Origin: a virus
IMG/VR virus record: IMGVR_UViG_3300009157_000016
Span: 32,001 to 96,000 of that record
Length of the DNA: 64,000 nt
Direction: 5' to 3' (one strand)
Shown: piece after piece, positions 15,611-62,427 of the stretch
Layout: every line of letters starts with the position of its first letter
Position numbering within the stretch: position 1 is the stretch's first letter
The notes under the pieces: generated by a model
What the model saw: only the letters and a program-made list of their open reading frames with translations
What the model was told of the DNA's origin: nothing
Database searches by the model: none
Program-made: the position numbers and the translations under genes

Positions 15611-15830
15611 GACGCACCTTTCCACGTTCTTTTAGTTTCACTTTCCTTCCCAACGACCAGTAGACGACCAAGACCCTCTTCGATTGTCGCCACTTGACTA
15701 TGTGGCAGGGAGCGAGGACACGTCTCATCTGCCAGACTTGTTCGAGAAGCTCCTTCAACGTGCAGCCGGGCTCACGGCGGAACTTCCCTTTTATGGGAAT
15801 GCGGAAGAGGGTCGGGTCGTCATCCTTCAT
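15462..15830 (-). CDS. Hypothetical protein
   Basis: ATGA-coupled to the resolvase; long 3' overlap with DUF1643 makes the tail doubtful. Confidence 0.4.
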   Translation of the reverse strand: MKDDDPTLFRIPIKGKFRREPGCTLKELLEQVWQMRRVLAPCHIVKWRQSKRVLVVYWSLGRKVKLKERGKVRHDVLRSKARPRRKEAPKDAGRHGRRRLVRRPQSGIPTDTAPLVEQTKAV

Positions 15831-16345
15831 AGGCGCACGCGATCACGCAGCGGCCGGCACTTGAGAAAATCATCCCAAAAGATGACTTGCAGATTGAGTT
15901 GTGGGTAGATGGCTTCAATGCGGAAGATGCCCAGCAAATGGAAGCCCTTCTTGGTGCTGAGGACCAGTATGGGGAAATTGTTCTGGCGGGCAATGAGGAA
16001 CGGTATCTTGTCGAACTTCTCAGCATCCCGGCACAAGGCAAGCCAGAAGTTGACAAGGTTCCCCCTGCGCTTAATCAGCGCATCAATGTCCAAGTTCTTG
16101 AAATGCTTTGAGTCGACGAGGAAGTTGTCGACGAATTTCATGCCGGCTGGATCAATGGCGCTTATGTCACCGGCTTGCGCAGAGAGGATTGTGCCGGACT
16201 TGAAGGCAATGCTGGCCCGGCCTCCTGACATGGCGGTGCGCCAGAATATGTCCTCACGCTTGCCGCGCGTGACCCATTTGGATAGCTCACGGCAACAGTA
16301 GCGTTCGAACGTAGCGCCCTTTTTCTGACTACCGCCCTTCCTCAT
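15827..16345 (-). CDS. Holliday junction resolvase (PD-(D/E)xK type)
   Basis: GSQKKGATFER, RTAMSGG, GDI, VDSK motifs; near RecA. Confidence 0.75.
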   Translation of the reverse strand: MRKGGSQKKGATFERYCCRELSKWVTRGKREDIFWRTAMSGGRASIAFKSGTILSAQAGDISAIDPAGMKFVDNFLVDSKHFKNLDIDALIKRRGNLVNFWLALCRDAEKFDKIPFLIARQNNFPILVLSTKKGFHLLGIFRIEAIYPQLNLQVIFWDDFLKCRPLRDRVRL

Positions 16346-16679
16346 CTACCCGCTCCCCTTTATCGTTGATAGGCCACTTCTCACCGCTGATAAGACGGAT
16401 AGTGACCATTTCCTGATGACGGTTCATCATGTCGACTTCGTATTCCGCCTTGCCGTTGGCGACCTCAATGGTGAACCGCATTCCCCTTAGCTTCTCGGGG
16501 TCGCTGATGTCCAAGCCGAACTCACGAAGCATTGCGAACGTCGTCGTGGTGGAGTGCATCCACGGAGTGTCTATTGTGGTGTAGCGCTGGCCGTAGATGG
16601 GCTCCACATCTTTGCCGAATGCGGTATCAGGAACCTCGCCGGTGTGCAGCGAGAATTGCATCCTGCGTAGCTCAACCAT
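16329..16679 (-). CDS. Hypothetical protein
   Basis: GAGGAGG RBS; coupled to RecA. Confidence 0.55.
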   Translation of the reverse strand: MVELRRMQFSLHTGEVPDTAFGKDVEPIYGQRYTTIDTPWMHSTTTTFAMLREFGLDISDPEKLRGMRFTIEVANGKAEYEVDMMNRHQEMVTIRLISGEKWPINDKGERVDEEGR

Positions 16680-17724
16680 ACTTCCTCCTCTTGGGTATGA
16701 ACTCGTCCTCGATCTCATTCCAGAGACGACGGACGACCTTGTTGACGCGACGTGTCTCGCGGTCAAACTCCTTGTCGCTCATGTCGTTCAGCGCGTCGCG
16801 GTACTGAGTGAACTCCTTCTTCTCCGCCGGTATGTCAGCCGCCTTGAGACGCTTGATGGACTTGAGCCAGTCCAGCGAAGCCCCAAGGTCATCAATCCCG
16901 TAGCCAAAGATGAAGTCCATGTCGCACGACCTGAACGGGAAGCCGACCTTGTTCTTCTTGCATAGGGCTTTGATGCCGATCCCGTAGACGCGCTCAACGC
17001 CGCGAATGGTGCGCTTAAGCTGCTCCTTGTGGGACAGCCAGAGGATGTGCGTGGCGTAGAAGTCAAGCGCTTTGCCGCCAGCGCGGCGGTGCTTCTCCCC
17101 AAAGCTGACGTTGATGTTGTCCCGCACCTGTGAGACGATAACAAGGCAGACGCGGGCCTTGCCGATCTTCTTGGTCAGCTTGCGGAACAATTCAGACGCC
17201 ATCTTGGCCTTTGCCATGCCGTAGGTGGCGTCACCAATCTCACGCTCCAGTTCCTTCTCGTCGCTGAGGCCGTCATAGCTGTCCAGCACGTACATGCCGG
17301 GCACGTCGTCTTTGATGCAGTCGTCGCAGAAGCGTTCCAAGTCCCGTGCAAACGCTTCAATGGTGGTGATGGGGGCGTCCGGATCGCCGAAGTCTATGTC
17401 GTCAACCGGCGCGCCCATAGCCTGCGCATAGTCCATGTCGTAGGCTTCTTCTGTCTCCCGGTAGGCTGCCTTTCCCTTCGGGTAGTCCATGCAGAAGTTT
17501 GTCAGCCCCTCAGTGGCAAGCGCCGTCTTGGCCGTGCTCTTGTCGCCCACGATGTTGATCATACGTCCTAGGACGTAGCCGCCGCTGAGAACGTTATCAA
17601 GCAGCCCGCAGCCGCTTGACGTGAATTCCAGCTTCTCCTTTTCGGAGGTGAAATAGAGGTTGTCCTCTTTTCTCAGCTTGTCATAAGCCGTTTCATCCTC
17701 AAGCTTTACGCGCCGCTTTGCCAT
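16672..17724 (-). CDS. RecA/UvsX-like recombinase
   Basis: SSGCGLLDNVLSGG, GDKSTAKT Walker A, VLDS, SQVRDNI, GGKALDFYA, KNKVGFPFR; start MAKRRVKL after GGAGG. Confidence 0.95.
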   Translation of the reverse strand: MAKRRVKLEDETAYDKLRKEDNLYFTSEKEKLEFTSSGCGLLDNVLSGGYVLGRMINIVGDKSTAKTALATEGLTNFCMDYPKGKAAYRETEEAYDMDYAQAMGAPVDDIDFGDPDAPITTIEAFARDLERFCDDCIKDDVPGMYVLDSYDGLSDEKELEREIGDATYGMAKAKMASELFRKLTKKIGKARVCLVIVSQVRDNINVSFGEKHRRAGGKALDFYATHILWLSHKEQLKRTIRGVERVYGIGIKALCKKNKVGFPFRSCDMDFIFGYGIDDLGASLDWLKSIKRLKAADIPAEKKEFTQYRDALNDMSDKEFDRETRRVNKVVRRLWNEIEDEFIPKRRKYG

Positions 17725-17931
17725 CTGGCCTCCAGTTGTAGACACGGCGCTGCTTGGGAAGGGGGTTGACCGCCAGATAATCCTGCCAGCCCTCGTATCC
17801 CATCGCCCGTATCTGACTTTGATCTCTGTCCAACCTTGCCCAAGGGATTTCGTCATCCATCTGCTCTGCAAGAGGGCGGTTATCTAGCTGGTGGGCGTAG
17901 ATGACGCCCTCTTGCAGGAGGTAGGCAGCCC

Positions 17932-19503
17932 TTAGTCCCGGTCGCGCCTCCGGCGGTCCCGGTCGTCGTCCGGGTCGTCATAGCGGGTGCGCTTCTTGTC
18001 ACCGCGATCGTCGTCACGGTCGCGCTTGCGGTCACGGTCGTCGTCATCATCCCGACCGCCGCGCTTCTCGCCGACGTCACGTTTGCGGTCGTCGTCCTTG
18101 TCCCGGTCCTTGCTGCGCTCACGCATCTCAGCAAGACGGTCCTTCACGTTGCGGCGCTCACCCTTGTCGTCGTCATCGCGCTTCCGGTCCCGGTCCCGGT
18201 CATCGTCATCACGGTCGCGACTGCGGCTGCCACGGTCAACGTCATCCCGGTCACGGCTGCGGCGGTCGTCCTTGTCGTCGTCACGGTCACGCCCGCGCCG
18301 GTCATCACGGTCGTCATCCCGGTCACGGCTGGCACGACGATCATCCCGGTCATCATCACGGTCACGCCGGCCACGACGATCGTCGTCGTCTTCGCTCCTC
18401 TTCCGTGACGACCCACGGTCATCATCACGATCGTCGTCCCGGCCACGGCCGCGCACCGAACCACGATCATCATCATCCCGGTCACGCCGGCCACGGCCTG
18501 AGCCGCGTTCGTCATCATCCCGGTCACGGCTGCGCCCGCCGCGCCGGTCGTCATCCCGGTCACGGTCACGGCTACGGCCACCACGACGATCGTCTTTGTC
18601 GTCGTCGTCCGTTTCAACGCGGACGTGGCCGCCGAAGGCCGCTTCAATGTGGTCGTAGTCGTGGTATTGCAGGACATCAGGGATGGGATTTTCCTTGATG
18701 TAGTCCAGCACGTCCTGCATGTCACGCTTGTTGTCCAAGATGGGACCGCTGGGGAGGATCTTCATCTTGGACGCCGGGTACTTGGTATTGCGGCCGGTGC
18801 CTTCACGGTAGAAGCGGATGTCGTTCCCGTCGTAAGGGTCATCAATGTAGATGAGCGCCTTGGTGTCCTCGTCAACCGTCAGGTTGGCGATGTCCTTGTC
18901 GAACGTCCACGCCATTGCCCAAAACTGAGCGCCTTCGTCAGGAGCGTTCTTGTCAAGGACCCACACGCCCTTCCGCTTCTTGGGCGTCAGGGCTTTGGCC
19001 AGCTTCTCGTCGCCGTCCTTTTCAGCATCACGGCGGGCCTCATCCAGCGGGTCCCTCTTGCCCAGCATCTTGCTGAGGCTGAGGTACGTCTGCGAGTCGA
19101 CGCCAATGCCGTAGTTGCAGTAGATGTCGTAGCAGTAGTACTTCGCATCGTCCCACGTGGGCGGCAGGATGCGGATCGTGTTCTTGCCTTCCTTTGGCTT
19201 GAACACCTTGATCCCATCCTTTACGATGGAGTCGAAGTTCCCTCCGCTTTGGTTGGCGGCTTCCCGCACGGCTTCACGCGACGTGCGCTTGTAGACAAAG
19301 CTACCACCACGACTGGAGCCGCGATCATCATCACGGTCACGATCACGCGAACGACCACGGTCACGATCCCGGTCATCGTCGTCCCTCCCACGGCTTGAGC
19401 GCCTGTCGTCATCATCCCGGCCACGGCGACGATCGTCGTCCCGGTCACGGTCGCGATCCCGGTCATCATCCCGGTCACGGCGTCTATCGTCATCACGTGC
19501 CAT
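17932..19503 (-). CDS. gp32-like ssDNA-binding protein with long Arg/Asp-rich N- and C-terminal tails
   Basis: Core FKPKEGKNTIRILPP..DPYDGNDIRFYREGTGRNTKY is typical of gp32-like SSBs; lies between RecA and UvsY-like genes. Confidence 0.75.
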   Translation of the reverse strand: MARDDDRRRDRDDDRDRDRDRDDDRRRGRDDDDRRSSRGRDDDDRDRDRGRSRDRDRDDDRGSSRGGSFVYKRTSREAVREAANQSGGNFDSIVKDGIKVFKPKEGKNTIRILPPTWDDAKYYCYDIYCNYGIGVDSQTYLSLSKMLGKRDPLDEARRDAEKDGDEKLAKALTPKKRKGVWVLDKNAPDEGAQFWAMAWTFDKDIANLTVDEDTKALIYIDDPYDGNDIRFYREGTGRNTKYPASKMKILPSGPILDNKRDMQDVLDYIKENPIPDVLQYHDYDHIEAAFGGHVRVETDDDDKDDRRGGRSRDRDRDDDRRGGRSRDRDDDERGSGRGRRDRDDDDRGSVRGRGRDDDRDDDRGSSRKRSEDDDDRRGRRDRDDDRDDRRASRDRDDDRDDRRGRDRDDDKDDRRSRDRDDVDRGSRSRDRDDDDRDRDRKRDDDDKGERRNVKDRLAEMRERSKDRDKDDDRKRDVGEKRGGRDDDDDRDRKRDRDDDRGDKKRTRYDDPDDDRDRRRRDRD

Positions 19504-19518
19504 ACACTTCTCTCCTCG

Positions 19519-19689
19519 TCAGGCGCTCTCGGCGCGGGTTTCTTTCTGCCCATGCTGGATAAGGCTCAGGAGTCCCTGAACGTATGCCAGCTTGGCGCGG
19601 TAGTATGCGATGAACACGAAGTTCAAGAAGCAATACAGCAGCGCCAGAACAAGGATCAGGACTGCTACGCCCAGTACGTCCTCAGTCAT
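19519..19689 (-). CDS. Small membrane protein (56 aa, absent from ORF track)
   Basis: MTEDVLGVAVLILVLALLYCFLNFVFIAYY...; fills the gap between UvsY-like and SSB genes. Confidence 0.5.
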   Translation of the reverse strand: MTEDVLGVAVLILVLALLYCFLNFVFIAYYRAKLAYVQGLLSLIQHGQKETRAESA

Positions 19690-20182
19690 CGTACCTCACC
19701 CTTCGTTTGGAACGGCCTTCAATGATCCGCTCCATGTTGCGCTTGGAACGATACTCGTCAGCCCGGCCGCCTTTGGTGGCGTCCGTCTGATAGTAGTTCG
19801 CTACGTACAGCCCTGCCAGATCCTTGAGCATGTAGGACCGCATTGAGAAGGACTCCTTCAACGTCTGGCACCTGTCCGCCCATTCCTTGGCGTCAAGGTA
19901 GCTCTTGGTGGCCTCAATGTGGTCGTCATGTATCTCAATGGCGTTCTTGATAGCCGCCTCACTGGCCTTGCCGTCCGACCGTTCCAGTTCCCTCCTGCAC
20001 TCAAAGTATAGGCGCGCGTCGATTTGGGACAGTTCCTCTTTGGCTGTGTCCCGGTCAGCGTTTGCCGCTGCCAATAGATCGCCGGCTTCATAGAACAATT
20101 CTGGTTGCCTGACCAATTCCATGTCTAGGTCAAGGCGGTCAATTTGCAGCGCACGGCGCAGTTCGCTAGGTTTTGCGGGCAT
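19682..20182 (-). CDS. UvsY-like recombination mediator
   Basis: LQIDRLDLDMELVRQP..KASEAAIKNAI..SFSMRSYML helical pattern; context with RecA and SSB. Confidence 0.6.
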   Translation of the reverse strand: MPAKPSELRRALQIDRLDLDMELVRQPELFYEAGDLLAAANADRDTAKEELSQIDARLYFECRRELERSDGKASEAAIKNAIEIHDDHIEATKSYLDAKEWADRCQTLKESFSMRSYMLKDLAGLYVANYYQTDATKGGRADEYRSKRNMERIIEGRSKRRVRYDD

Positions 20183-20214: not shown

Positions 20215-21192
20215 CTAGGCCCGGTGGAGTTCCAGAACCAAGCCAATGGAAACGTAGAGGGGAGCGTACTTGGCGGAATTGTCATAGGGCGTTGAGAAGC
20301 ATTCGATGATCCTCAGCAGGCTCGCAGCGCGGCGGTGATCAGTCGTCTTGGCCGCCACCTTCGCCATGTAGTGGCACGTAACGATGCGAATGCTTTCAGC
20401 GTCCTGATTGGCTTCCTCCATGTCCTTGCAGATGCGCATGGCGTCCTTCCATGTGCCCTTGGGCTTCATGAGGAACTGGCAGAAGTCATTGATTTCCTTC
20501 GTCTCACCGGCCAGCCTTAGCGCCTCACGCGCGTCGGTCACCGTTTCGCAGTACTCAACCTTCTCAAGGTAGGTCAAAGCCTGCCGTGGTGAGCCGCCGC
20601 TGTTCTCAGCAATCAGCTCTAGTATCTCATCCTCCACCTTGAGGTCCGCCTTGTCCATGACCTCGGCAAGGATGAGCAGAATTTCATCCTCACTGAGCGG
20701 CTTGAGATGGTAGTCAATGCACCGCGTCTTGATGGTGGCAGGAACCTTGCCGGGCAGCGTGGTGCAGAAGAACCAGTACACGTGCTTGGGCGGTTCCTCC
20801 GTGGCCTTGAGAATGCTGTCCCATGCGTTGCTGGACAGCTTGTGGCACTCATCCACGATGATTCCTTTGACCGGACTGTCGCCAATTGCCCGGTAGTTGG
20901 CCTTCTGGACAATGCTGCGCATGGCGTCCACACCGGTATGCGTGGCAGCGTCCACGTCGAGGATGTTCGCCAGCGTGATAGTGGCATCGTCGCTCTTGGC
21001 CCCAAGCAGGGCAAACTCGTTCGCCACAATGCGGGCAAGCGTCGTCTTGCCAAGGCCGGAGCCGCCCGTGAACAGGAAGGTGTGGGCACGCCCCTCCTTC
21101 ACGACCTTGCGCAAGGACTTCACGACGGCGTCGTGTCCAATGACGTCCTTGAATACGTTCGGCCGATAGGCGGTGTGTAGTGACGTGCTCAT
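20215..21192 (-). CDS. Clamp loader, DNA pol III gamma/tau-like AAA+
   Basis: YRPNVFKDVIGH, GGSGLGKTTLARI, DAATHTGVD, IVDECHKL, LKATEEPP, TIKTRC. Confidence 0.95.
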   Translation of the reverse strand: MSTSLHTAYRPNVFKDVIGHDAVVKSLRKVVKEGRAHTFLFTGGSGLGKTTLARIVANEFALLGAKSDDATITLANILDVDAATHTGVDAMRSIVQKANYRAIGDSPVKGIIVDECHKLSSNAWDSILKATEEPPKHVYWFFCTTLPGKVPATIKTRCIDYHLKPLSEDEILLILAEVMDKADLKVEDEILELIAENSGGSPRQALTYLEKVEYCETVTDAREALRLAGETKEINDFCQFLMKPKGTWKDAMRICKDMEEANQDAESIRIVTCHYMAKVAAKTTDHRRAASLLRIIECFSTPYDNSAKYAPLYVSIGLVLELHRA

Positions 21193-21512
21193 CTTCGTTT
21201 ATCCTTTCGCTTCCCCTGTTGGCTCATGTGAAATATACCGTTCGCACAGTCAGGGCGCTCCCCATTGCACGGCCTCCAGTAGATGTGTCCGCACAACGTA
21301 CACTCAGTTGGCTTGTCACCGGGGAACGCTGGATACATCGTTCGGTGGTCACCGGCTTTGTACTCGGTCATGACCTCTATGGGTCCGTCGTCCAGCCTCA
21401 CCCGCTGACGGTGCGGCGGCGGGGCGGGCTCAGGCAGTATCAGGTCATCTTCGTCAAGCCTGACCCGTTTGCGGGGCACGACGGGCTCATCTAAACGCAC
21501 TCGCTTTTTCAT
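21189..21512 (-). CDS. Small protein with three RVRLD repeats and a C-terminal Cys cluster
   Basis: KKRVRLDE/RKRVRLDE/RQRVRLDD then CTLCGH..PC..DC; GGAGG RBS; ATGA-coupled to the clamp loader. Confidence 0.7.
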   Translation of the reverse strand: MKKRVRLDEPVVPRKRVRLDEDDLILPEPAPPPHRQRVRLDDGPIEVMTEYKAGDHRTMYPAFPGDKPTECTLCGHIYWRPCNGERPDCANGIFHMSQQGKRKDKRR

Positions 21513-24422: not shown

Positions 24423-25478
24423 TCAGTCTCCGAAGTTGGACAAGATTTGGAAGAGGTCCGCCCCCTTCCGGTAGACCGTGAAGCCTTCCAGCACGGCCAT
24501 CTCTGAGCATACGTCAATGCTGCGCGCCATCAAAGCCGCGTTGACCTTGATCTCGACGTCTGGATGATCCCCTTGAAGGTTGACCAGATCGCGCACCTCG
24601 CCCATGTCGGTGTTCGTGTATAGGCGCATCCGGCCTTCCTTGATGCTGATCTCAGTGGGCTGCGATTTGGGCTCAGCCACGACACGCGCCCGGCTCAGAG
24701 CGTGCTCAAGTCCTTTGGGGACCTTCATCCACGGGATCTCATCCCGCGTGGTCTTTTCGACCCACATGGCGTGGTCCACCGGGTCTTCTGGTTTGATGAC
24801 GCGGCCGTAGACCTTGTAGTCCTTCTCAAGCTCGGCCAACACCCATTCGTCAGAAGCGTGCAGCCGGCCGTTCATGGACTTGTCGCTCTTGCAAATGCGC
24901 AGGACCGACTCGCAGAAGGAGTTGGGCATGACGAAGCTGTGCGGGTCGTTGTAGTTGGCTCCGTCGATCAGGTAGTGCGTGAGGCTGTCTGAGTCGCAGG
25001 AGTAGAAGCTGATCCCGTCACCGGTATCCAACGTGATGCCCATGAGCGCCTGTTGGCTGCTGTCCTTGCTGGTCGTGGTGAGGCAAATTTCCATCGCCTC
25101 AATCAGGCTGTCATCCAGGTCCAGCACCACGTCCCACGACTCGTCAGACGGTTCTTTGAACAGGAACTCTGACTCTGGCAAGTAGGGCAGGCGCATCTTG
25201 GACCGGCCGGCAATGAACACGACTTCGTGTTGCTGGTCGTCGAACTCAATCTCCACTTCCTCGGTGCGGCAGTTGCGCAGCAAGCCGAGCATGGTGTCGC
25301 CGTGGCAGGCGAAGGGCGCTACGCCGGACGTGCATTTGGCCACGATGCCTAGGTGGTCGTCCGTCGCGTACAGGGTGTCCCCTGTGAACACGAAGTTCTG
25401 GTAGACGGGAACCAAGTCCTGATCGGCCAAGGCGGGCTTGATCAGTTCCAACATCGTGACCAGTGCTTTGCGTCTCAT
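24423..25478 (-). CDS. Sliding clamp (DNA pol III beta-like)
   Basis: About 350 aa; PVYQNF..LYATD, QALMGI..YSCDS, ALSRARVV patterns parallel DnaN; next to Pol and clamp loader. Confidence 0.8.
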   Translation of the reverse strand: MRRKALVTMLELIKPALADQDLVPVYQNFVFTGDTLYATDDHLGIVAKCTSGVAPFACHGDTMLGLLRNCRTEEVEIEFDDQQHEVVFIAGRSKMRLPYLPESEFLFKEPSDESWDVVLDLDDSLIEAMEICLTTTSKDSSQQALMGITLDTGDGISFYSCDSDSLTHYLIDGANYNDPHSFVMPNSFCESVLRICKSDKSMNGRLHASDEWVLAELEKDYKVYGRVIKPEDPVDHAMWVEKTTRDEIPWMKVPKGLEHALSRARVVAEPKSQPTEISIKEGRMRLYTNTDMGEVRDLVNLQGDHPDVEIKVNAALMARSIDVCSEMAVLEGFTVYRKGADLFQILSNFGD

Positions 25479-25918
25479 AGCCTCACCCTTCTTGCTAGTT
25501 TCCAACGGCGCTTGGCCGATTGCTGCATCTTTGCGATAGATTCGGATGTGTGCCGCGTACCATACCTTATGTGACCTATACCTTTCTGCGTGACGCCGGA
25601 GTGACCCTTCTGAGATTTATGTTTGGCGTGACAAGAAGGATAGAGTTGATTCTGACTGTTGGTTCCATCAAGTAAGTGCGCGGCGTTGCAGCACGGATGA
25701 AATTCGCAGTCATGGAGAACCATTCTTGGCCATGCTGGCACGTAACCGTTCTCTAAGAAGAACGCCACGCGATGGGCAGTGTACTGTATGCTGTGACGAA
25801 CTGAGAATACTCCATGCCCACTGGTTTGCGTTCCGCCTAACCAAGGCCAGCATTCGTCGGGGCCGCGTCGGTCAACTTTGGACCAGAAGCGCGCTATGTC
25901 TTTAGCGCTGAGGATCAT
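25475..25918 (-). CDS. HNH homing endonuclease with NUMOD3-like tail
   Basis: RFWSKVD..CWPW, AHRVA, LHDCE..CCNAAHL..GTNSQN; HTSESIAKM. Confidence 0.9.
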   Translation of the reverse strand: MILSAKDIARFWSKVDRRGPDECWPWLGGTQTSGHGVFSVRHSIQYTAHRVAFFLENGYVPAWPRMVLHDCEFHPCCNAAHLLDGTNSQNQLYPSCHAKHKSQKGHSGVTQKGIGHIRYGTRHTSESIAKMQQSAKRRWKLARRVRL

Positions 25919-28343: not shown

Positions 28344-29285
28344 TCAGTCGTCGCGGCGGCGGCGGCTGCCCTTCCGGTCGTCATCGTCATCCTTGCGGCT
28401 GGACCGCTTGGAGTCCTTGGCATCGTCGTCGTCACGGCTGCGGCGCTTGGACGAGGAAGCCTCCTTGTCGTCGTCGCGGCTGCGGCGCTTGCCCTTGTCG
28501 TCATCGTCGTCACGGGAGCGGCGCTTGCTGCTGCCCTTGTCGTCGTCATCACGGGACCGCTTCCGGTCGCCGTCGTCGGAGTCACGCTCCTTGTTCGAAG
28601 CGGTGGTCATTTTCCGCTTCTGCGCCGAGGACAGGTCATCCTTGTGCGTGACCTTGATCAGACCGTCGTAGCGCTCGACAAGGTGCCCATCCTTGGTCAG
28701 CTTCTTGAGCACGTTGTTCTGCGGGCCGCCGGTCTTGTCCTTGATGGTCTTCATGGACGCGCCGCCCTCGAAGAGCTTCACGGCGTCGGAGACCTTGGTG
28801 CCGACGACGAGCCCGTAGCGGTCGCGCTTCGCACCCTCGTAGTCACGGGGCGACTTCTTTTTGGAGCCCTTGTCGTCGTCCTTGTCACGGCCGCGGATGG
28901 ATTTGCGGTCGTCCTTGTCGTCGTCCTTGGAGGAACGACGGCCGCGCCGGTCATCCTTGTCCTCGTCCTTGTCCTTCGACTTGGCCGACTTGCGGTCATC
29001 GTCGTCGTCCTTGGACGAACGCTTGCCGCCCTTGCGGTCGTCGTCCTTGCCGCCCTTCTCCTCCTCGAAGTCCTCGATATCCTGGTCGGTCTTCAAGGCG
29101 TCCAGCGCGTTGTTCGCCCAGTCGGTCGCCGGGTCTGAGACCGCGTTGAACTCGTCGTCGGGAAGCTTGTTGACTTCCTTGGCGAGCGCGGCAAGGTAGT
29201 CCTGCCGGGTCTTGTAGTCGTCCTCGTCCTTCTTGAAGCCGGTCGCCTTGATCAGCTCCTTCTCGATTGCATGGAGTTTGGCCAT
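28344..29285 (-). CDS. D/K/R-rich low-complexity protein with central winged-helix-like segment
   Basis: Two mixed-charge tracts around GTKVSDAVKLFEGGASMKTIKDKTGGPQNNVLKKLTKDGHLVE; AGGAA RBS. Confidence 0.7.
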   Translation of the reverse strand: MAKLHAIEKELIKATGFKKDEDDYKTRQDYLAALAKEVNKLPDDEFNAVSDPATDWANNALDALKTDQDIEDFEEEKGGKDDDRKGGKRSSKDDDDDRKSAKSKDKDEDKDDRRGRRSSKDDDKDDRKSIRGRDKDDDKGSKKKSPRDYEGAKRDRYGLVVGTKVSDAVKLFEGGASMKTIKDKTGGPQNNVLKKLTKDGHLVERYDGLIKVTHKDDLSSAQKRKMTTASNKERDSDDGDRKRSRDDDDKGSSKRRSRDDDDDKGKRRSRDDDKEASSSKRRSRDDDDAKDSKRSSRKDDDDDRKGSRRRRDD

Positions 29286-29302: not shown

Positions 29303-29875
29303 TCAAGCTGTTAACCACTCACGAAACGCGGCCACCAAGTCAGCGTCGCTATCCAGACCAAGAATGCGCTTGATCCTTGTGTTGAAGCTGGGGCGTGGAA
29401 GCCCACGGTGTCTCCTACTTGGTTTCCTAAGCTCTTGCAAGTGGCGGTCACTGGCGAACACGCTGAGAAGCAAAAGCACTTCCGGAGGCGCGTTCGCCAA
29501 GACAATAGACACTGACCCTTCGTCGGCAAGATTGCAAGCTAATTCGCTCACATCTTCTACGCCGTCAACGAAGGCGGACTTGCGTTCAATGTTCTTGTTT
29601 GCTAGGTCAATCAGCTCGTTCAGGAGAGCCGTCTTGTAGAGCGCCATGAAATGGGGCGCGTGCATGACGCGCGGATACTTGACTGTGCAGCGCTCGAATA
29701 CAATGTAGGCGTCTTGCAGGAGGTCGTCCATGCCACATAGGACTGGATCATAGCGCCATAGGTTTTCACGTAAGAACTTGATCGTGTAGGCTTTTATCAC
29801 CCCGTCCCATTCAGGATACCATTCAAGACGGACACGACTGGACAACTTTTCAAGCCGCACACGGCGCTTCGGCAT
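29303..29875 (-). CDS. Sigma-70 region-2-like factor
   Basis: MDDLLQDAYIVFERCTVKY..FMALYKTALLNELIDLA resembles the region-2 pattern EDLxQExxxxxxxxxxxF..FxxY...xxNxxxD; GGGAGAGG RBS before MPKRRVRL. Confidence 0.6.
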   Translation of the reverse strand: MPKRRVRLEKLSSRVRLEWYPEWDGVIKAYTIKFLRENLWRYDPVLCGMDDLLQDAYIVFERCTVKYPRVMHAPHFMALYKTALLNELIDLANKNIERKSAFVDGVEDVSELACNLADEGSVSIVLANAPPEVLLLLSVFASDRHLQELRKPSRRHRGLPRPSFNTRIKRILGLDSDADLVAAFREWLTA

Positions 29876-30010
29876 GGCCCTCTCCCCGACATAGAGCAGC
29901 GCCCCATTGCCCGGCTGCACTTCGATGTGGGTAATGGGAGCTCTAGCTGCGAAAAGTGAGCCAAGCACTTTCACGTTTCAGAGGCAAATGGAATCTTGTC
30001 ATCCACACAG

Positions 30011-37140: not shown

Positions 37141-37467
37141 TTACAGTCTAACGCGCTTCTTGCCACCGCCTTTGTCGAGGCTCTCCCTCAACTTCCTCAT
37201 CGGATCACGTTCGCGCGCTTTTTCTGAGCGACTCATACCTTCGAATTCCCTCAGTTTAACTTTCCCTTTCCTGTAGGCGTCAAGTAAAGCCTCCTCGAGA
37301 TCCTCACCTTGACCGTGAAAGTAGTCCCAAACGGAATGAGTGTGAACGAGAACGACGTCAAAGTACCAGTGTCTCCTTCCCTCCTTTCCGATGGGGTGGC
37401 GCTGATAGCATTGATGCAACATGAAGCCGGCATCGTTGGCCCGCTCAAGGACGTCTTCTACTGACAT
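37141..37467 (-). CDS. Hypothetical protein ending in KKRVRL
   Basis: GAGGAG RBS; first gene of the leftward replication block. Confidence 0.6.
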   Translation of the reverse strand: MSVEDVLERANDAGFMLHQCYQRHPIGKEGRRHWYFDVVLVHTHSVWDYFHGQGEDLEEALLDAYRKGKVKLREFEGMSRSEKARERDPMRKLRESLDKGGGKKRVRL

Positions 37468-57639: not shown

Positions 57640-57742
57640 GTCTACTCTCCTGTCGAATTTACCTGTCCAATACAGGGTTTGAGTTTCGTTTCCGACCGTG
57701 TATATCTGTCCCTCCGATGTGCTTTTCTTATCGGGTGTCCAC

Positions 57743-58429
57743 ATGCAGGGTAAAAATAAACGACGGGTTCGGCTAGACGACGAGCCGCGACCGAAGCGCG
57801 TGCGGGACATGGAGCCCGCCAACCGCGCCCGTGACCGGGCTTATCGAGATGCACCGCGCGACACGGAAGGTCGCATGATTCCCGGCTTTAGATACAAGCA
57901 ACTCGTCGATGCATACGAGTCCGCCGGGCTGGAGCCGCATGTTCAGCGGGTAGACGACGTCAGCTTGACGAAGCGCCCCATGTTCATCTCAAACCCTGAG
58001 AAGGGTAAGAGGCTGATCAAGCTGCTCCGCAAGGGGTTGCCTTACACCACGTGCTGTCGGTTGATCGGGATCAGTCGCTCCACATTCATTGAGTGGATGG
58101 TGAAGGGCCGTGAAGGGCATCCCCATTACGTTGACTTCTACGAGAAGATCTGCAAGGCGGAAGGCCAAGCAGAACTCAGCAGGCTCAAGGAGCTGCGGCA
58201 GGATGGTAAGGGCGACTGGAAGTCGTCTGCTTGGCAGCTCGAGCGCCGTTGGCCTGAGCATTGGGGACGCCGCGACGCAGTGCGTGCGGAAGTTGTCGCC
58301 AACGTAGAAATCAGCGTAAAGGGGAAAGAAAAGCTGGCGCAGCAGGTCGCCACCGACGAAGTGTCGCGCGAGCTTGCGCGCCGCATGATTGACGGAACGG
58401 AATACGGCTACGAGGACCTCAGCAAATGA
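57743..58429 (+). CDS. Terminase small subunit
   Basis: HTH LRKGLPYTTCC..GISRSTFIEW, WKSSAWQLERRWPEHWG; directly upstream of TerL. Confidence 0.75.
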   Translation: MQGKNKRRVRLDDEPRPKRVRDMEPANRARDRAYRDAPRDTEGRMIPGFRYKQLVDAYESAGLEPHVQRVDDVSLTKRPMFISNPEKGKRLIKLLRKGLPYTTCCRLIGISRSTFIEWMVKGREGHPHYVDFYEKICKAEGQAELSRLKELRQDGKGDWKSSAWQLERRWPEHWGRRDAVRAEVVANVEISVKGKEKLAQQVATDEVSRELARRMIDGTEYGYEDLSK

Positions 58430-60042
58430 CCGGTCTGATTGAGAGCACTGGCCGGTTCCGCGTACGATTGGACGCTGAGGACCTGGAAGAGATTGAGGCC
58501 CGCCCCAAGCGCCGCGTGCGCTTGGGGACAGACGTAGCAGAGCTGTCGCAGGCGGCGTATGCCAAGCCGCTTGTCGACACTGCCGGGAAGCCGCTGATAG
58601 TTCCCAACAGGGACTTGATGGGCAGGATCACACCGGAGGAACTGGCGTACGCGCTGCCCGGCGGTCTTGCCAAGCTGGCCTACCCCAAGTGGATGTATGC
58701 CCCCTACATCCGCTACGTTGAGAACCGCATCCTGCCCATCATTCAGGGCAACAAGTCCATCTACCTGATGTTCTCAGCGCCGCCTCGGCACGGCAAGACA
58801 CAATTCATTTCCAAGGTGCTGCCGGCTTGGTATCTTGGGCGCAACCCTGACAAGCGTGTCCTGCTCGTCACCTACAACACTGAGTTCTCCAAGCAGCAAG
58901 GTCGCGCTGCCCGGAACATCTTTGAGCAGTTCGGTCCCACGGTCTTCAACTTGAAGGTCGCGATGGACAGTTCGTCCGCTTCCCATTGGGACATTGAAGG
59001 ACACCAAGGCGGTATGGAAGCCGTAGGTGCCGAAGGTTCCATCATGGGTAAGGGCGCGGACCTTCTGATCATTGACGATCCGCTCAAGGGCTTTGAGGCT
59101 GCGATGAGCGAGACCATCCTACAGCGTGTGTGGGAATGGTTCCTGACCGACGTTTACTCCCGTCTGGAGCCCGGCGCTTCGGTCATCATTGTCATGACGC
59201 GCTGGACGCTTCTTGACTTGATTGGTCGCATTGAAGCGCGGCGCATTGAGACGCAGGAGGAGGTTGACGCCGGCGAGGAAGAGATTGTCGCGTTCGACGA
59301 GTTTGAGCGCATCAACTTCCCTGCCTTGGCGACCGACGACAACGACGTGCTTGGCCGCCTCACCGGTCAGGCGTTGTTCCCGCAGCGGTACCCCGCAGAG
59401 CGCTTGCTCAAGATCAGGCGCAACATGGACACGTACTGGTGGGAGGCCCTGTATCAGGGGAACCCCGTGCCGCTCAGCGGCACGATGATCGATATCAAGT
59501 GGCTGACCGGCACCGGCCGCCAGTACGTGGAGGAGATGGTCCGCAATCAGTTCGAGATGATCGTCATCTCAACTGACACGGCCAACAAGGACACCGAGCT
59601 GGCCGACTTCAGTGTGTTCGGCGTGTGGGGTATCCGTGAGGACCGTTACTACCTTTTGGACCTCATCCGTGATAAGATGGAGTTCCCTGAGCTACTAGGC
59701 ACCGCGAAGGCGTTGCTGGAGCAATGGGATCCGACCTTCTTCCTCATTGAGGACAAGGGCTCAGGAACCAACCTGATCCAAATGCTCCGCAACGAGGGTG
59801 TGGACTGCGTGCGGCCCATAGACCCCGGTAGCGAGAGCAAGATCATCAGGATGAGCTCTGAGACCCCCGCGATGAGAGTTGGCAAGGTGAAGACTCCGAA
59901 GGACGCCTCATGGCTCGAGCCCTACCTGCTTGAGGCAAGAAGCTTCCCCCGTGGCAAAAAGGACCAAATGGACATGACCTCGCAGTTCCTACGCTTCATG
60001 CGTGAGAACTCAAGCGGGATCAAAATGTGGACATTCCAATGA
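58426..60042 (+). CDS. Terminase large subunit
   Basis: PPRHGKT Walker A, GKGADLLIIDDP Walker B, MTRW, ALYQGNP, DTA..DFS, IEDKGSG, FPRG..DQMD. Confidence 0.95.
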   Translation: MTGLIESTGRFRVRLDAEDLEEIEARPKRRVRLGTDVAELSQAAYAKPLVDTAGKPLIVPNRDLMGRITPEELAYALPGGLAKLAYPKWMYAPYIRYVENRILPIIQGNKSIYLMFSAPPRHGKTQFISKVLPAWYLGRNPDKRVLLVTYNTEFSKQQGRAARNIFEQFGPTVFNLKVAMDSSSASHWDIEGHQGGMEAVGAEGSIMGKGADLLIIDDPLKGFEAAMSETILQRVWEWFLTDVYSRLEPGASVIIVMTRWTLLDLIGRIEARRIETQEEVDAGEEEIVAFDEFERINFPALATDDNDVLGRLTGQALFPQRYPAERLLKIRRNMDTYWWEALYQGNPVPLSGTMIDIKWLTGTGRQYVEEMVRNQFEMIVISTDTANKDTELADFSVFGVWGIREDRYYLLDLIRDKMEFPELLGTAKALLEQWDPTFFLIEDKGSGTNLIQMLRNEGVDCVRPIDPGSESKIIRMSSETPAMRVGKVKTPKDASWLEPYLLEARSFPRGKKDQMDMTSQFLRFMRENSSGIKMWTFQ

Positions 60043-62085: not shown

Positions 62086-62427
62086 CTACAGCCTGACGCG
62101 CTCACGTCGCGGCCTGTCGGCCTTGTCTGGCGGCGTGCGGTCAGCCTCAAAAGCCTGCCCCGCCTGCCGCTTACGAAGCATTGCTGTGATCTGCCGTTCC
62201 TGGTCGGCGAGGGCCTGCTTCATCAAGTAGAACTTCGCCGCCTCCAGCGCAGACCGAGCGAGGCCGTTAAGACCCCGCACATACTCGCCGTACATGTCGG
62301 GACCTACATCCTCCACGTAGTTGCCTTCCTGGAAGCGCGTAAGGTCATGCAGCTCGGCCATGAGGTCCTCGCACTTGACAAGGAGCTCCTTCTGAGACTG
62401 TAGCGGAACGATTGACAGCCTCGGCAT
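62086..62427 (-). CDS. Hypothetical protein ending in RRERVRL
   Basis: Coupled to the upstream gene (TGATG). Confidence 0.55.
   Translation of the reverse strand: MPRLSIVPLQSQKELLVKCEDLMAELHDLTRFQEGNYVEDVGPDMYGEYVRGLNGLARSALEAAKFYLMKQALADQERQITAMLRKRQAGQAFEADRTPPDKADRPRRERVRL

What the first reader, a model, noticed from the sequence alone, without database searches (positions are those of the whole stretch)
17932..19503. SSB flanked by ~290 residues of Arg/Asp polyampholyte: a candidate condensate scaffold
Seen: a ~230-aa gp32-like core with a ~65-aa N-tail and ~225-aa C-tail made almost only of R, D, G, S and K in blocks such as RDRDDDRRG. Codons vary, so this is not a simple DNA tandem array. 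Established: phage and bacterial SSBs normally end in a short acidic tail, whereas RD/RE mixed-charge domains drive condensation of eukaryotic nuclear-speckle proteins. Inference: this SSB may build a phase-separated replication factory on ssDNA and concentrate the basic RVRL-tagged proteins. The tail itself has KKRTRYDD near its end.
Basis: partly seen in the sequence, partly recalled or inferred. Interest (0 to 1): 0.8.

Follow-up and report, generated by a model that had tools for sequence, protein, structure and literature searches.

The report
Phage SSB with Arg/Asp mixed-charge tails
An uncultured 108-kb phage encodes a T4 gp32-type single-stranded-DNA-binding protein whose folded core sits between about 290 residues of disordered arginine/aspartate tails; the tails are the extreme case of a family-wide trait and carry two short docking motifs shared with the neighbouring UvsY-like recombination mediator, while any droplet-forming role remains untested.

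Summary
Window 17932-19503 (-) is one 523-aa ORF with a good ribosome-binding site. Residues ~90-297 fold with high confidence as a gp32-type core.

The tails:
- Residues 1-67 and 298-523 are 81% charged, almost only Arg and Asp, near neutral and predicted disordered.
- They meet the published definition of an arginine-rich mixed-charge domain.
- They are not unique. The family is large (1,763 clusters), nearly all members have a mixed-charge C-tail, and 26 of 150 representatives have such a domain. This protein is the most extreme.
- This scan has met the same architecture in other genomes (e1-372929, e1-372482).

New here:
- The C-tail is a linker leading to a conserved basic helix. The same motif closes the adjacent UvsY-like protein across relatives.
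- In this phage both proteins also carry K[KR]R[VT]RYDD, a variant of the genome-wide RVRL tag (17 seen, 1.4 expected).

The SSB is therefore itself a tagged member of that network, not simply a sponge for tagged proteins. A condensate role is plausible (about 0.3) but no tool here tests it.

Verdict: a new variant of a known kind, of moderate to high interest.

The parts
19511..19517 (-). Shine-Dalgarno-like GAGGAGA, 8 nt upstream of the start codon
   Evidence: Read directly from the sequence.
19303..19503 (-). N-tail, res 1-67. It is an Arg/Asp mixed-charge disordered insertion between the family's MA[KR] start and the conserved F-x-Y-x-x-R-[ST] block.
   Evidence: Composition. pLDDT is about 44-53 with no secondary structure. 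The position of the insertion is seen in alignment A1. There is no alternative in-frame start.
18613..19302 (-). Conserved N-terminal basic segment (res 68-88) plus the gp32-type OB-fold ssDNA-binding core (res ~90-297)
   Evidence: Pfam PF08804 at 30.6 bits. AF2 pLDDT is about 90-97. Foldseek matches 2a1k, 1gpc and 8gme at E 1e-7 to 1e-6, TM 0.53-0.60 by target. There are 290 homologues at 51-65% identity.
18163..18612 (-). C-linker, res 298-447. Arg/Asp mixed-charge disordered region built from decayed ~12-13-aa repeat units.
   Evidence: It meets the mixed-charge-domain criteria.
18103..18162 (-). Conserved basic helix module, res 448-467. The motif N-V-K-D-R-L-A-E-M-R-E-R is at 452-463 (nt 18115-18150). 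It is the local form of the family motif S-I-R-[DE]-R-L-x-x-R-R.
   Evidence: The motif occurs in 117 of 123 family proteins. AF2 predicts a helix at 453-467. The same motif closes the UvsY-like neighbour across relatives.
17935..18102 (-). Post-helix extension, res 468-523. It is Arg/Asp-rich and the longest in the family (66 residues after the motif against a median of 13).
17962..17997 (-). Short linear motif KKRTRYDDPDDD, res 503-514. It holds the only aromatic residue in either tail and is a variant of the genome's RVRL tag.
   Evidence: Position. R[VT]RYDD occurs only in this protein and in the UvsY-like neighbour. Shuffles of the whole C-tail give [KR][KR]R.RYDD with probability 0.002. 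Related motifs are embedded in relatives' SSB tails, in L017 and L016.
19682..20182 (-). UvsY-like recombination mediator, 166 aa. Its extra C-terminal helix (res 141-165) carries the shared helix motif and ends in KRRVRYDD.
   Evidence: AF2 pLDDT 89. Foldseek's top 18 hits are all T4 UvsY. VIA-align gives Z 12.1-12.7, rmsd 2.2-2.8 A over 123-126 residues, against Z 9.6 or less for unrelated chains.
16672..17724 (-). RecA/UvsX-like recombinase immediately downstream. The probable true start is at 17724, which gives an N-terminus MAKRRVKLEDE (an RVKL tag).
   Evidence: Pfam RecA 2.7e-33 and phrog_97 UvsX-like. GGAGG lies 5 nt upstream of this ATG. Tag seen.

Best explanation
This is the phage's gp32-type ssDNA-binding protein for replication and recombination.

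Architecture:
- An OB-fold core is preceded by a conserved basic N-terminal segment.
- In place of T4's short acidic tail, it has the layout typical of this phage family: a long disordered mixed-charge linker, a conserved basic amphipathic helix, then an acidic end.
- In this phage, decayed tandem duplication of ~13-residue Arg/Asp units has expanded the linker to 150 residues.
- It has also added a 56-residue post-helix extension and a 67-residue N-terminal insertion.

How it most likely works:
- The core coats ssDNA.
- The tails stay disordered and act as a long flexible tether that presents two docking peptides.
- One peptide is the basic helix. The adjacent UvsY-like mediator has the same motif at its own C-terminus.
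- The other is an RxRYDD tag, shared with the UvsY-like protein and related to the RVRL tag on the RecA-like protein, a resolvase, an HNH nuclease and others.
- SSB and mediator would thus dock to the same, still unidentified partner. That gives a route for hand-off of ssDNA from SSB to the recombinase machinery.
- The near-neutral Arg/Asp polyampholyte adds many weak, salt-sensitive contacts, tail to tail, Arg to ssDNA and Asp to the DNA-binding cleft. These contacts would tune binding and clustering of SSB-coated ssDNA.

Shown here: the ORF, the fold, predicted disorder, composition, family distribution, and the shared motifs with their co-variation.

Inferred: docking to a common partner, any autoregulation, and any clustering.
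For: ORF and start site.

Fold:
- gp32 core by Pfam and PHROG.
- AF2 plus Foldseek matches to 1gpc and 2a1k.
- Tails have pLDDT below 50 and no secondary structure, apart from helix 453-467.

Synteny: the order polA, clamp loader, UvsY-like, small ORF, SSB, RecA is shared with Vibrio Mardecavirus MAR10 and Edwardsiella phage ZHS.

Family distribution:
- All of about 120 listed homologues have charged C-tails of 61-214 aa, and each lineage has its own repeat unit.
- 26 of 150 representatives at 50% identity have a mixed-charge-domain window.
- The helix motif occurs in 117 of 123 proteins.

Shared helix motif:
- A score matrix was built from the SSB motifs with the window protein left out.
- Scanned over relatives' genes, it picks out the C-termini of the UvsY-like proteins: 26 of 44 lie above the 95th percentile of 500 other genes (Mann-Whitney p = 1.5e-22).
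- The true matrix beats all 200 column-shuffled matrices.

Co-variation within genomes:
- Window: KKRTRYDD in the SSB and KRRVRYDD in the UvsY-like protein.
- L017: RARPRLDE and RTRARLED in the SSB, RSRPRLND in the UvsY-like protein.
- ZHS: ...RRRRED and ...RRRED.

Neighbour identity: UvsY fold.

Precedent in T4: part of the gp32 C-terminal region (residues ~248-269) recruits partners and the acidic end regulates DNA binding (PMC11551737).
Against: - No binding partner is identified, and no interaction was or could be tested.
- About half of the motif-similarity signal is composition, since both C-termini are basic.
- The UvsY fold match is helical, and its Z of 12-13 lies in the range where helical matches need caution.
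- Charge patterning in the tails does not differ from random shuffles (z -0.6 to -1.0), so there is no evidence of selection on pattern.
- The extreme length could be neutral repeat expansion.
- The closest relative has only 65% core identity. No near relative exists to test in-frame indel evolution or to rule out an assembly error in repeat number.
Confidence: 0.6

Rival explanations
1. Condensate scaffold. The Arg/Asp tails drive phase separation of SSB, alone or on ssDNA, into a replication/recombination factory. Tagged or basic proteins, and the phage's second mixed-charge protein, partition into it.
For: - The tails meet the Greig et al. mixed-charge-domain criteria over res 1-78 and 292-523, with R/(R+K) = 0.88.
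- Pure RD repeats of 80 or more residues condense at 5 uM, and Arg-to-Lys substitution abolishes this. The C-tail here is 226 residues.
- E. coli SSB phase-separates through its disordered linker.
- T4 gp32 and UvsX form droplets in 5% PEG.
- A second protein of this phage (28344-29285) has about 195 mixed-charge residues. Its homologue in phage ZHS also has charged linkers.
Against: - Net charge per residue is -0.03. In the cited work the neutral variant condensed only modestly, and -0.1 abolished condensation.
- Charges are well mixed (kappa about 0.05-0.09).
- The SSB itself carries the tag, so the simple model of 'acidic/basic sponge for RVRL proteins' is not what the sequences suggest.
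- There is no experimental or computational test here.
- ssDNA dissolves E. coli SSB condensates (section heading in PMC7584906).
Confidence: 0.3
2. Tolerated repeat expansion or entropic spacer. The only selected property is a long, soluble, disordered linker between core and docking helix. The Arg/Asp make-up and the extreme length are by-products of slippage of a GAC/CGN-rich unit in a 58% GC genome.
For: - Degenerate 36/39-nt and 24-nt arrays and a ~13-residue periodicity.
- Tail length varies continuously from 61 to 226 aa across the family, with lineage-specific units.
- Charge pattern is no different from shuffles.
Against: - Mixed-charge character, not just disorder, recurs in nearly all lineages built from unrelated repeat units.
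- Arg/Asp-rich versions arose in several sub-lineages: P0251, P0269, P0157, P0193, ZHS and L017.
- N-tails expanded independently in at least five members.
- Repeat copies are only 74-76% identical yet remain in frame and of pure composition.
Confidence: 0.25
3. Variable tails as evasion or decoy against host defences that sense phage SSB, such as Retron-Eco8 and DRT-type systems.
For: The library holds several recent papers on defence systems triggered by phage SSBs (titles and abstracts). The tails are the fastest-evolving part of the protein.
Against: Nothing in this window links the SSB to a defence system. Rapid change is expected of any disordered region. The conserved docking motifs point to replisome and recombination partners.
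Confidence: 0.05
4. Artefact: the tails are untranslated, or come from misassembly of low-complexity repeats.
For: Other frames are also open across the low-complexity DNA. It is a metagenomic assembly, so repeat copy number could be wrong.
Against: - RBS plus ATG, with no alternative start before the conserved Phe69.
- The conserved helix and the tag are in frame downstream of the linker.
- Repeats are only 74-76% identical, so they are unlikely to collapse or expand in assembly.
- Cultured phages (ZHS, MAR10) and hundreds of contigs show the same architecture.
Confidence: 0.03

Closest known systems
T4 / RB69 gp32 (Pfam PF08804; PDB 1gpc, 2a1k, 8gme)
   Same: - Same OB-fold core.
- A monomer-type phage SSB placed next to UvsX/RecA-like and UvsY-like genes.
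- A three-part plan: an N-terminal basic segment, a core, and a C-terminal partner-recruiting region that combines a docking peptide with acidic residues (PMC11551737).
   Different: - Only 13-14% identity.
- No Cys/His zinc site at the place where the ZHS homologue has CPx7CPIC.
- The ~47-residue acidic A domain is replaced by 226 residues of near-neutral Arg/Asp polyampholyte with a basic helix.
- A 67-residue mixed-charge N-terminal insertion is added.
SSB homologues of Vibrio Mardecavirus phages (MAR10, SSP002) and Edwardsiella phage vB_EpM_ZHS, mostly annotated 'hypothetical protein'
   Same: - 38-42% identical core and the same gene order.
- ZHS has Arg/Asp/Glu-rich tails at both ends, 82 and 150 aa.
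- These proteins belong to phrog_34306.
   Different: - They carry a small acidic helical module in the C-tail that the window protein lacks.
- Their tails are shorter and less pure.
- They have no RYDD tag, and no enriched RVRL-type motif stood out among ZHS proteins.
Bacterial SSB: OB fold, intrinsically disordered linker and conserved C-terminal peptide, with linker-driven phase separation (Harami et al. 2020, PMC7584906)
   Same: - The same logic of a folded ssDNA binder, a poorly conserved disordered linker and a conserved C-terminal docking peptide.
- Some family members even end in PPFDEDE or DEDAPF, which recalls the bacterial acidic Pro-Phe tip.
   Different: - A different OB family, with no PF00436 match.
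- Probably a monomer rather than a tetramer.
- The linker is a charged polyampholyte rather than Gly/Gln/Pro-rich.
- The docking element is a basic helix.
Eukaryotic arginine-rich mixed-charge domains, from nuclear-speckle proteins and fungal SPA-5 (Greig et al., bioRxiv 10.1101/771592)
   Same: Composition and length meet that paper's operational definition. The domain is Arg- and Asp-dominated, like the synthetic RD repeats that condense.
   Different: - Viral and bacterial context, attached to an ssDNA-binding fold.
- Slightly net-negative rather than net-positive.
- No evidence of condensation.
- The similarity is convergent composition, not homology.

Membership tests
gp32-like SSB (Pfam PF08804) | Sequence match to the family profile above the curated cut-off | tested here: met
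   30.6 bits against a gathering score of 26.8, E 4.4e-07, res 104-251. Also phrog_1192 'single strand DNA binding protein', 4.4e-08.
gp32-like SSB (Pfam PF08804) | gp32-type OB-fold core | tested here: met
   The AF2 core has pLDDT above 90. Foldseek matches are 2a1k at E 9.6e-08, 1gpc at 2.4e-07 and 8gme at 5.2e-07, with TM by target 0.53-0.60. The next unrelated hits have E of 0.1 or more.
T4 gp32 in the strict sense | Zinc site in the core (His/Cys3). The ligand identities are recalled from memory. | tested here: not met
   The core has only two Cys, C124 and C129. There are none in the segment where the ZHS homologue has CPx7CPIC. This is a feature of T4 and RB69 gp32, not of the Pfam family.
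T4 gp32 in the strict sense | N-terminal basic cooperativity (B) segment | tested here: inconclusive
   A conserved block F-x-Y-x-x-R-[ST]-x-E precedes the core in 90% or more of members. Its likeness to T4's N-terminal F-K-R-K-S-T rests on memory and was not aligned here.
T4 gp32 in the strict sense | Short acidic C-terminal A domain | tested here: not met
   The C-tail is 226 aa with net charge per residue -0.035 and 38% basic residues.
Arginine-rich mixed-charge domain (Greig et al.) | A 60-residue window with charged fraction of at least 0.7 and a positive:negative ratio of 1 +/- 0.3 | tested here: met
   Residues 1-78 and 292-523 are covered by qualifying windows (criteria, test).
Arginine-rich mixed-charge domain (Greig et al.) | Arginine rather than lysine as the basic residue | tested here: met
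   R/(R+K) = 0.88 in the qualifying segments.
Arginine-rich mixed-charge domain (Greig et al.) | Neutral to net-positive charge, the regime in which condensation was seen | tested here: inconclusive
   Net charge per residue is -0.03 to -0.035. In the paper the neutral variant gave modest condensation and -0.1 gave none.
Arginine-rich mixed-charge domain (Greig et al.) | Condensation or gelation of the protein | not testable with these tools
   Needs purified protein or live imaging.
Bacterial SSB (PF00436) with C-terminal acidic Pro-Phe tip | SSB-type OB domain and a D-D-D-I-P-F-like last residues | tested here: not met
   No PF00436 match at E of 0.1 or better. The protein ends ...RRRRDRD. 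A minority of relatives end in PPFDEDE or DEDAPF.
UvsY recombination mediator (for the neighbour at 19682-20182) | UvsY fold, placed next to SSB and recombinase genes | tested here: met
   - Foldseek's top 18 hits are all T4 UvsY, with E 6e-3 and TM by target 0.58-0.65.
- VIA-align gives Z 12.1-12.7 and rmsd 2.2-2.8 A over 123-126 of ~135 residues, with the next rows at Z 9.6 or less.
- No Pfam match, so membership by sequence is not shown.

The most novel reading that the evidence does not exclude
This phage lineage runs a two-layer organising system for its DNA-metabolism proteins.
- Layer 1: Arg/Asp or Lys/Asp mixed-charge domains on an ssDNA binder (this SSB) and on a winged-helix-like protein (28344-29285) form a charge-driven phase around replicating DNA.
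- Layer 2: a short RVRL/RxRYDD peptide tag addresses at least a dozen proteins to a common receptor in that phase. These include the RecA-like and UvsY-like proteins, the SSB, a resolvase, an HNH nuclease and a sigma-like factor.

If so, it would be a bacterial-virus counterpart of eukaryotic mixed-charge condensates with client-targeting motifs.
Probability: 0.15. Interest if true: 0.85.

Novelty: new variant of a known kind. Interest (0 to 1): 0.6.

Why it matters
Disordered tails of SSBs set cooperativity, partner recruitment and, in E. coli, phase separation.

- **A natural test case.** This large and apparently undescribed branch of gp32-type phage SSBs replaces the textbook acidic tail with mixed-charge linkers. 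The window protein is its extreme: 293 residues that meet the definition of an arginine-rich mixed-charge domain, a sequence class studied almost only in eukaryotic nuclei. That makes it a convenient natural protein for asking whether such domains condense in bacteria.
- **A concrete hypothesis.** SSB and the UvsY-like mediator share a C-terminal helix and a co-varying tag. This predicts competitive or sequential docking to one partner, which can be tested directly and bears on how ssDNA is handed from SSB to recombinase.
- **Practical interest.** gp32, UvsX and UvsY homologues are the working parts of recombinase polymerase amplification, where droplet formation affects performance (PMC11951158).

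Tried and rejected
- Megablast of 10 kb around the gene against 50,697 phage records gave no match.
- The search for related loci with the single core sequence found no relative. It worked only with alignment A1.
- A profile search of PDB sequences with A1 gave only a low-complexity match to a legumin-like protein, which I rejected.
I therefore could not inspect the long contigs of the closest homologues, P0004 and P0005, and used IMG/VR loci instead.
- Charge-patterning test: the tails do not differ from composition-matched shuffles. I dropped the idea that well-mixed or blocky patterning is selected.
- Pfam search of 32 UvsY-like neighbours gave no consistent family.
- tblastn of the second mixed-charge protein against phages gave no match. 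The Atlas search gave only sub-threshold leads to winged-helix/HTH folds.
- A 4-mer enrichment scan of phage ZHS showed no RVRL-like tag there, so the tag is specific to a sub-lineage.
- I considered that the family helix motif (R-E-R-L) and the RVRL tag are the same element. I rejected this because the window's UvsY-like protein and the SSBs of the window and L017 carry both elements at separate positions.
- I considered the sliding clamp as the tag receptor. The UDG-PolA polymerase has no such tag, which argues against it but does not exclude it.
Full report
**1. What is there**

The window is bases 32001-96000 of a 108,377-bp IMG/VR virus record that CheckV rates as complete. At 17932-19503 on the minus strand lies one 523-codon ORF.
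- AGGAG sits 8 nt upstream of its ATG.
- There is no in-frame ATG, GTG or TTG between Met1 and Phe69, the first family-conserved residue. The N-tail must therefore be translated if the conserved protein is made.

Composition:
- Residues 1-67 are 42% Asp and 39% Arg.
- Residues 298-523 are 39% Asp, 33% Arg and 6% Lys.
- Both have a charged fraction of 0.81, net charge per residue of about -0.03, and low charge segregation (kappa about 0.05-0.09).
- The core (68-297) has ordinary composition.

Repeat structure:
- The DNA is not a clean tandem array. It does contain decayed arrays: period 36/39 nt, 74-76% matches, at 18240-18381, and a 24-nt array in the N-tail.
- Charge shows a 12-14-residue periodicity.
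- Synonymous codons are mixed.

**2. The folded part**

- Pfam places residues 104-251 in the gp32 family above its curated cut-off.
- PHROGs gives phrog_34306 (1.7e-55, unknown function) and the SSB family phrog_1192.
- An AlphaFold2 model built on a 46-sequence alignment has pLDDT of about 90-97 over residues ~90-297. Both tails fall below 50 with no secondary structure, except a helix at 453-467.
- Foldseek's only significant PDB matches are the RB69 and T4 gp32 cores and the gp32-Dda complex (E 1e-7 to 1e-6).
- Viral predicted structures annotated as SSBs follow.
- The zinc site of T4 gp32 is not present here, although the ZHS homologue keeps a Cys cluster at that place.

**3. Context**

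Gene order on the minus strand:
- beta-clamp-like processivity factor;
- UDG-fused family A polymerase;
- a small protein with three RVRLD tags;
- DnaX-like clamp loader;
- a 166-aa protein;
- a 56-aa membrane-like ORF;
- the SSB;
- a RecA/UvsX-like recombinase;
- a PDDEXK resolvase-like protein;
- SbcCD.

The same order, from polymerase to RecA, occurs in Vibrio phage MAR10 (Mardecavirus) and Edwardsiella phage vB_EpM_ZHS. Their SSB homologues (38-42% identical cores) are annotated as hypothetical.

The 166-aa neighbour is UvsY-like:
- Its model has pLDDT 89.
- All top Foldseek hits are T4 UvsY.
- VIA-align gives Z 12.1-12.7 at 2.2-2.8 A over 123-126 residues. That is about 3 Z units above unrelated helical chains.
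- Relative to T4 UvsY it has an extra C-terminal helix (141-165) after a short low-confidence linker.

**4. The tails are a family trait, and this is the extreme**

- The core finds 290 proteins in the 5.8-billion-protein set. The best has 65% identity, and lengths run from 299 to 455 aa.
- An exhaustive phmmer search of cluster representatives finds 1,763 clusters at E of 1e-3 or better, and 595 at 1e-30 or better.
- Every listed homologue has a charged C-tail of 61-214 residues. N-tails are usually 5-10 residues, but long ones arose several times: ZHS 82 and P0082 93, and P0251, P0269 and P0274 among the representatives.
- Each lineage uses its own repeat unit. Examples are acid block-K-P-basic block, D-rich/K-S-S-K-R, and E-E-P-A-P-x-R-R-R. 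All alternate acidic and basic residues.
- I applied the operational definition of a mixed-charge domain from Greig et al.: a 60-residue window, charged fraction of at least 0.7, and charge ratio 1 +/- 0.3.
- By that definition, 21 of 123 proteins and 26 of 150 representatives qualify. The window protein ranks first, with 310 qualifying residues against 221 and 196 for the runners-up, and R/(R+K) = 0.88.
- Arg/Asp-rich versions recur in several sub-lineages. One (P0269) even starts M-A-R-D-D-D-R, like this protein.
- This scan has already reported the same architecture from other genomes (e1-372929 and e1-372482). I found no paper describing it.

**5. What the C-tail leads to**

- Alignment shows a conserved module near the C-terminus: S-[ILV]-R-[DE]-R-[LI]-x-x-R-R. 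It is followed by about 13 residues that usually end in Asp/Glu, and about one in ten ends with P-P-F-D-E-D or similar.
- The module is present in 117 of 123 proteins.
- In the window protein it reads N-V-K-D-R-L-A-E-M-R-E-R (452-463) and coincides with the only predicted helix in the tails.
- Another 56 residues follow the helix module here. The 66 residues after the motif itself are the longest such stretch in the family.
- The C-tail is thus a 150-residue linker, a docking-type helix, and an added extension.

**6. The helix motif is shared with the UvsY-like neighbour**

- In 80 IMG/VR loci fetched with the family alignment, the UvsY-like proteins end in ...Y-x-R-Q-R-E-R-L-A-E-A-R....
- I built a position-specific score matrix from 106 distinct SSB motifs, leaving out the window protein, and scanned it over the other ORFs of those loci.
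- Its best non-SSB hits were UvsY-like C-termini.
- A cleaner test used distinct last-30-residue segments of non-overlapping genes. UvsY-like proteins had a median of -7.1 against -28.3 for 500 others, and 26 of 44 lay above the others' 95th percentile (Mann-Whitney p = 1.5e-22).
- The true matrix separated the groups better than all 200 column-shuffled matrices: 21.2 against 11.9 +/- 2.5, maximum 19.7.
- So part of the likeness is shared basic composition, and part is ordered motif.

**7. A second, co-varying motif**

- The single island of non-R/D/G/S residues in the extension is K-K-R-T-R-Y-D-D-P-D-D-D (503-514).
- The UvsY-like protein ends K-R-R-V-R-Y-D-D.
- R[VT]RYDD occurs in these two proteins only. 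Shuffles of the whole C-tail give the pattern [KR][KR]R.RYDD with probability 0.002.
- In relative L017, the SSB linker holds R-A-R-P-R-L-D-E and R-T-R-A-R-L-E-D-D-P, and its UvsY-like protein ends R-S-R-P-R-L-N-D.
- In L016, the SSB linker holds S-R-Y-D-D-D.
- In ZHS, the two proteins end R-R-R-R-E-D and R-R-R-E-D.
- These motifs are variants of a tag that is strikingly enriched in this genome. RVRL occurs 17 times against 1.4 expected, while permuted controls sit at expectation. It is mostly preceded by K/R-K/R-R, followed by Asp/Glu, and lies at protein ends.
- Tagged proteins include the resolvase-like protein, an HNH nuclease, a sigma-like protein and the tri-tag protein. The RecA-like protein is tagged at its probable true N-terminus, M-A-K-R-R-V-K-L-E-D-E.
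- Homologous tags occur in L015, L016 and L017 but not in most relatives, and no such motif stood out in ZHS.
- The polymerase has none.

**8. Reading**

Shown:
- a gp32-type SSB;
- translated, predicted-disordered, near-neutral Arg/Asp tails;
- a family-wide plan of linker plus helix;
- two peptide motifs shared and co-varying with the UvsY-like mediator.

Inferred, and my best explanation (confidence 0.6):
- The tails are a long flexible tether that presents those peptides to a partner common to SSB and mediator. This is the arrangement expected for hand-off of SSB-coated ssDNA to the recombinase.
- The polyampholyte contributes weak multivalent contacts that tune binding and clustering.
- T4 gp32 offers the nearest mechanistic precedent. 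Part of its C-terminal region (residues ~248-269) recruits Dda, and its acidic end acts on the DNA-binding site (PMC11551737).

- For it: length and arginine content exceed the thresholds at which pure RD repeats condensed. SSB condensates are known. This phage has a second mixed-charge protein (28344-29285) whose ZHS homologue also has charged linkers.
- Against it: net charge is slightly negative and the charges are well mixed, a regime of modest condensation in the cited experiments. Patterning is no different from random.
- The part of the idea that makes the SSB a sponge for 'basic RVRL-tagged proteins' needs revision, because the SSB is itself tagged.

A neutral-expansion reading (0.25) cannot be excluded for the extreme length. 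An artefact is unlikely (0.03).

**9. Limits**

- No close relative exists (65% core identity at most), so I could not test in-frame indel evolution or confirm repeat number.
- No multimer prediction or binding test was available.
- The tag receptor is unknown.
- The likeness of the N-terminal block to T4's cooperativity motif, and the identity of T4's zinc ligands, rest on memory.

Noticed in passing
Whole genome; in the window for example 15827-16345, 21189-21512, 25475-25918, 29303-29974, 37141-37467, 57698-58429, 58426-60042, 62086-62427: - A short peptide tag [KR][KR]-R-V-R-L-[DE][DE] is strongly enriched: 17 RVRL against 1.4 expected, with permuted 4-mers at expectation.
- It sits mostly at the extreme C-terminus (5 proteins end in RVRL) or near the N-terminus of DNA-metabolism and regulatory proteins.
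- The same tag occurs in relatives L015, L016 and L017, but not in most relatives, and no such motif stood out in ZHS.
- The receptor is unknown, and the polymerase lacks the tag.
   Followed up: partly
window 16672-17871 (-): The longest ORF of the RecA/UvsX-like gene probably over-extends. An ATG at 17724, with GGAGG 5 nt upstream, gives an N-terminus M-A-K-R-R-V-K-L-E-D-E, which is an RVKL tag. The RecA-like gene of L017 has P-K-R-Q-R-V-R-L-E at residue 12.
   Followed up: partly
window 28344-29285 (-): - A second mixed-charge protein of 313 aa. About 195 residues are Asp/Lys/Arg repeats (res 60-160 and 220-313), around an N-terminal helical domain and a possible winged-helix domain (res ~145-216; Atlas structural leads only).
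- Its N-domain is 42% identical to ZHS_68 of Edwardsiella phage ZHS, which also has charged linkers.
- There is no Pfam match.
   Followed up: partly
window 19682-20182 (-): A UvsY-like recombination mediator with no Pfam match. Beyond the T4 UvsY-equivalent region it has an extra C-terminal helix, which carries the motif shared with the SSB.
   Followed up: yes
window 19519-19689 (-): A 56-aa hydrophobic, membrane-like small ORF lies between the UvsY-like gene and the SSB. ORFs of similar size sit at the same place in MAR10 (MAR10_072) and ZHS (ZHS_55).
   Followed up: no
L017:3980-5377 (+), IMGVR_UViG_3300028831_000505: The closest SSB in tail style: 465 aa with an Arg/Glu/Asp/Gly-rich linker. 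Two embedded R-x-R-x-R-L-[DE][DE]-P tags match the C-terminus of that phage's own UvsY-like protein.
   Followed up: partly
L005:17164-18615 (-), Edwardsiella phage ZHS gene ZHS_77: The putative DNA helicase of ZHS ends in G-R-R-R-R-R-E-E-D-D-D-E-E. This resembles the R-R-R-(R)-E-D ends of that phage's SSB and UvsY-like protein, so a third protein may share the C-terminal signature.
   Followed up: no
Family members P0009, P0010, P0037, P0097, P0105, P0114: About one in ten family SSBs ends in an acidic Pro-Phe tip (PPFDEDE, DEDAPF). This recalls the C-terminal peptide of bacterial SSB and may mimic it.
   Followed up: no
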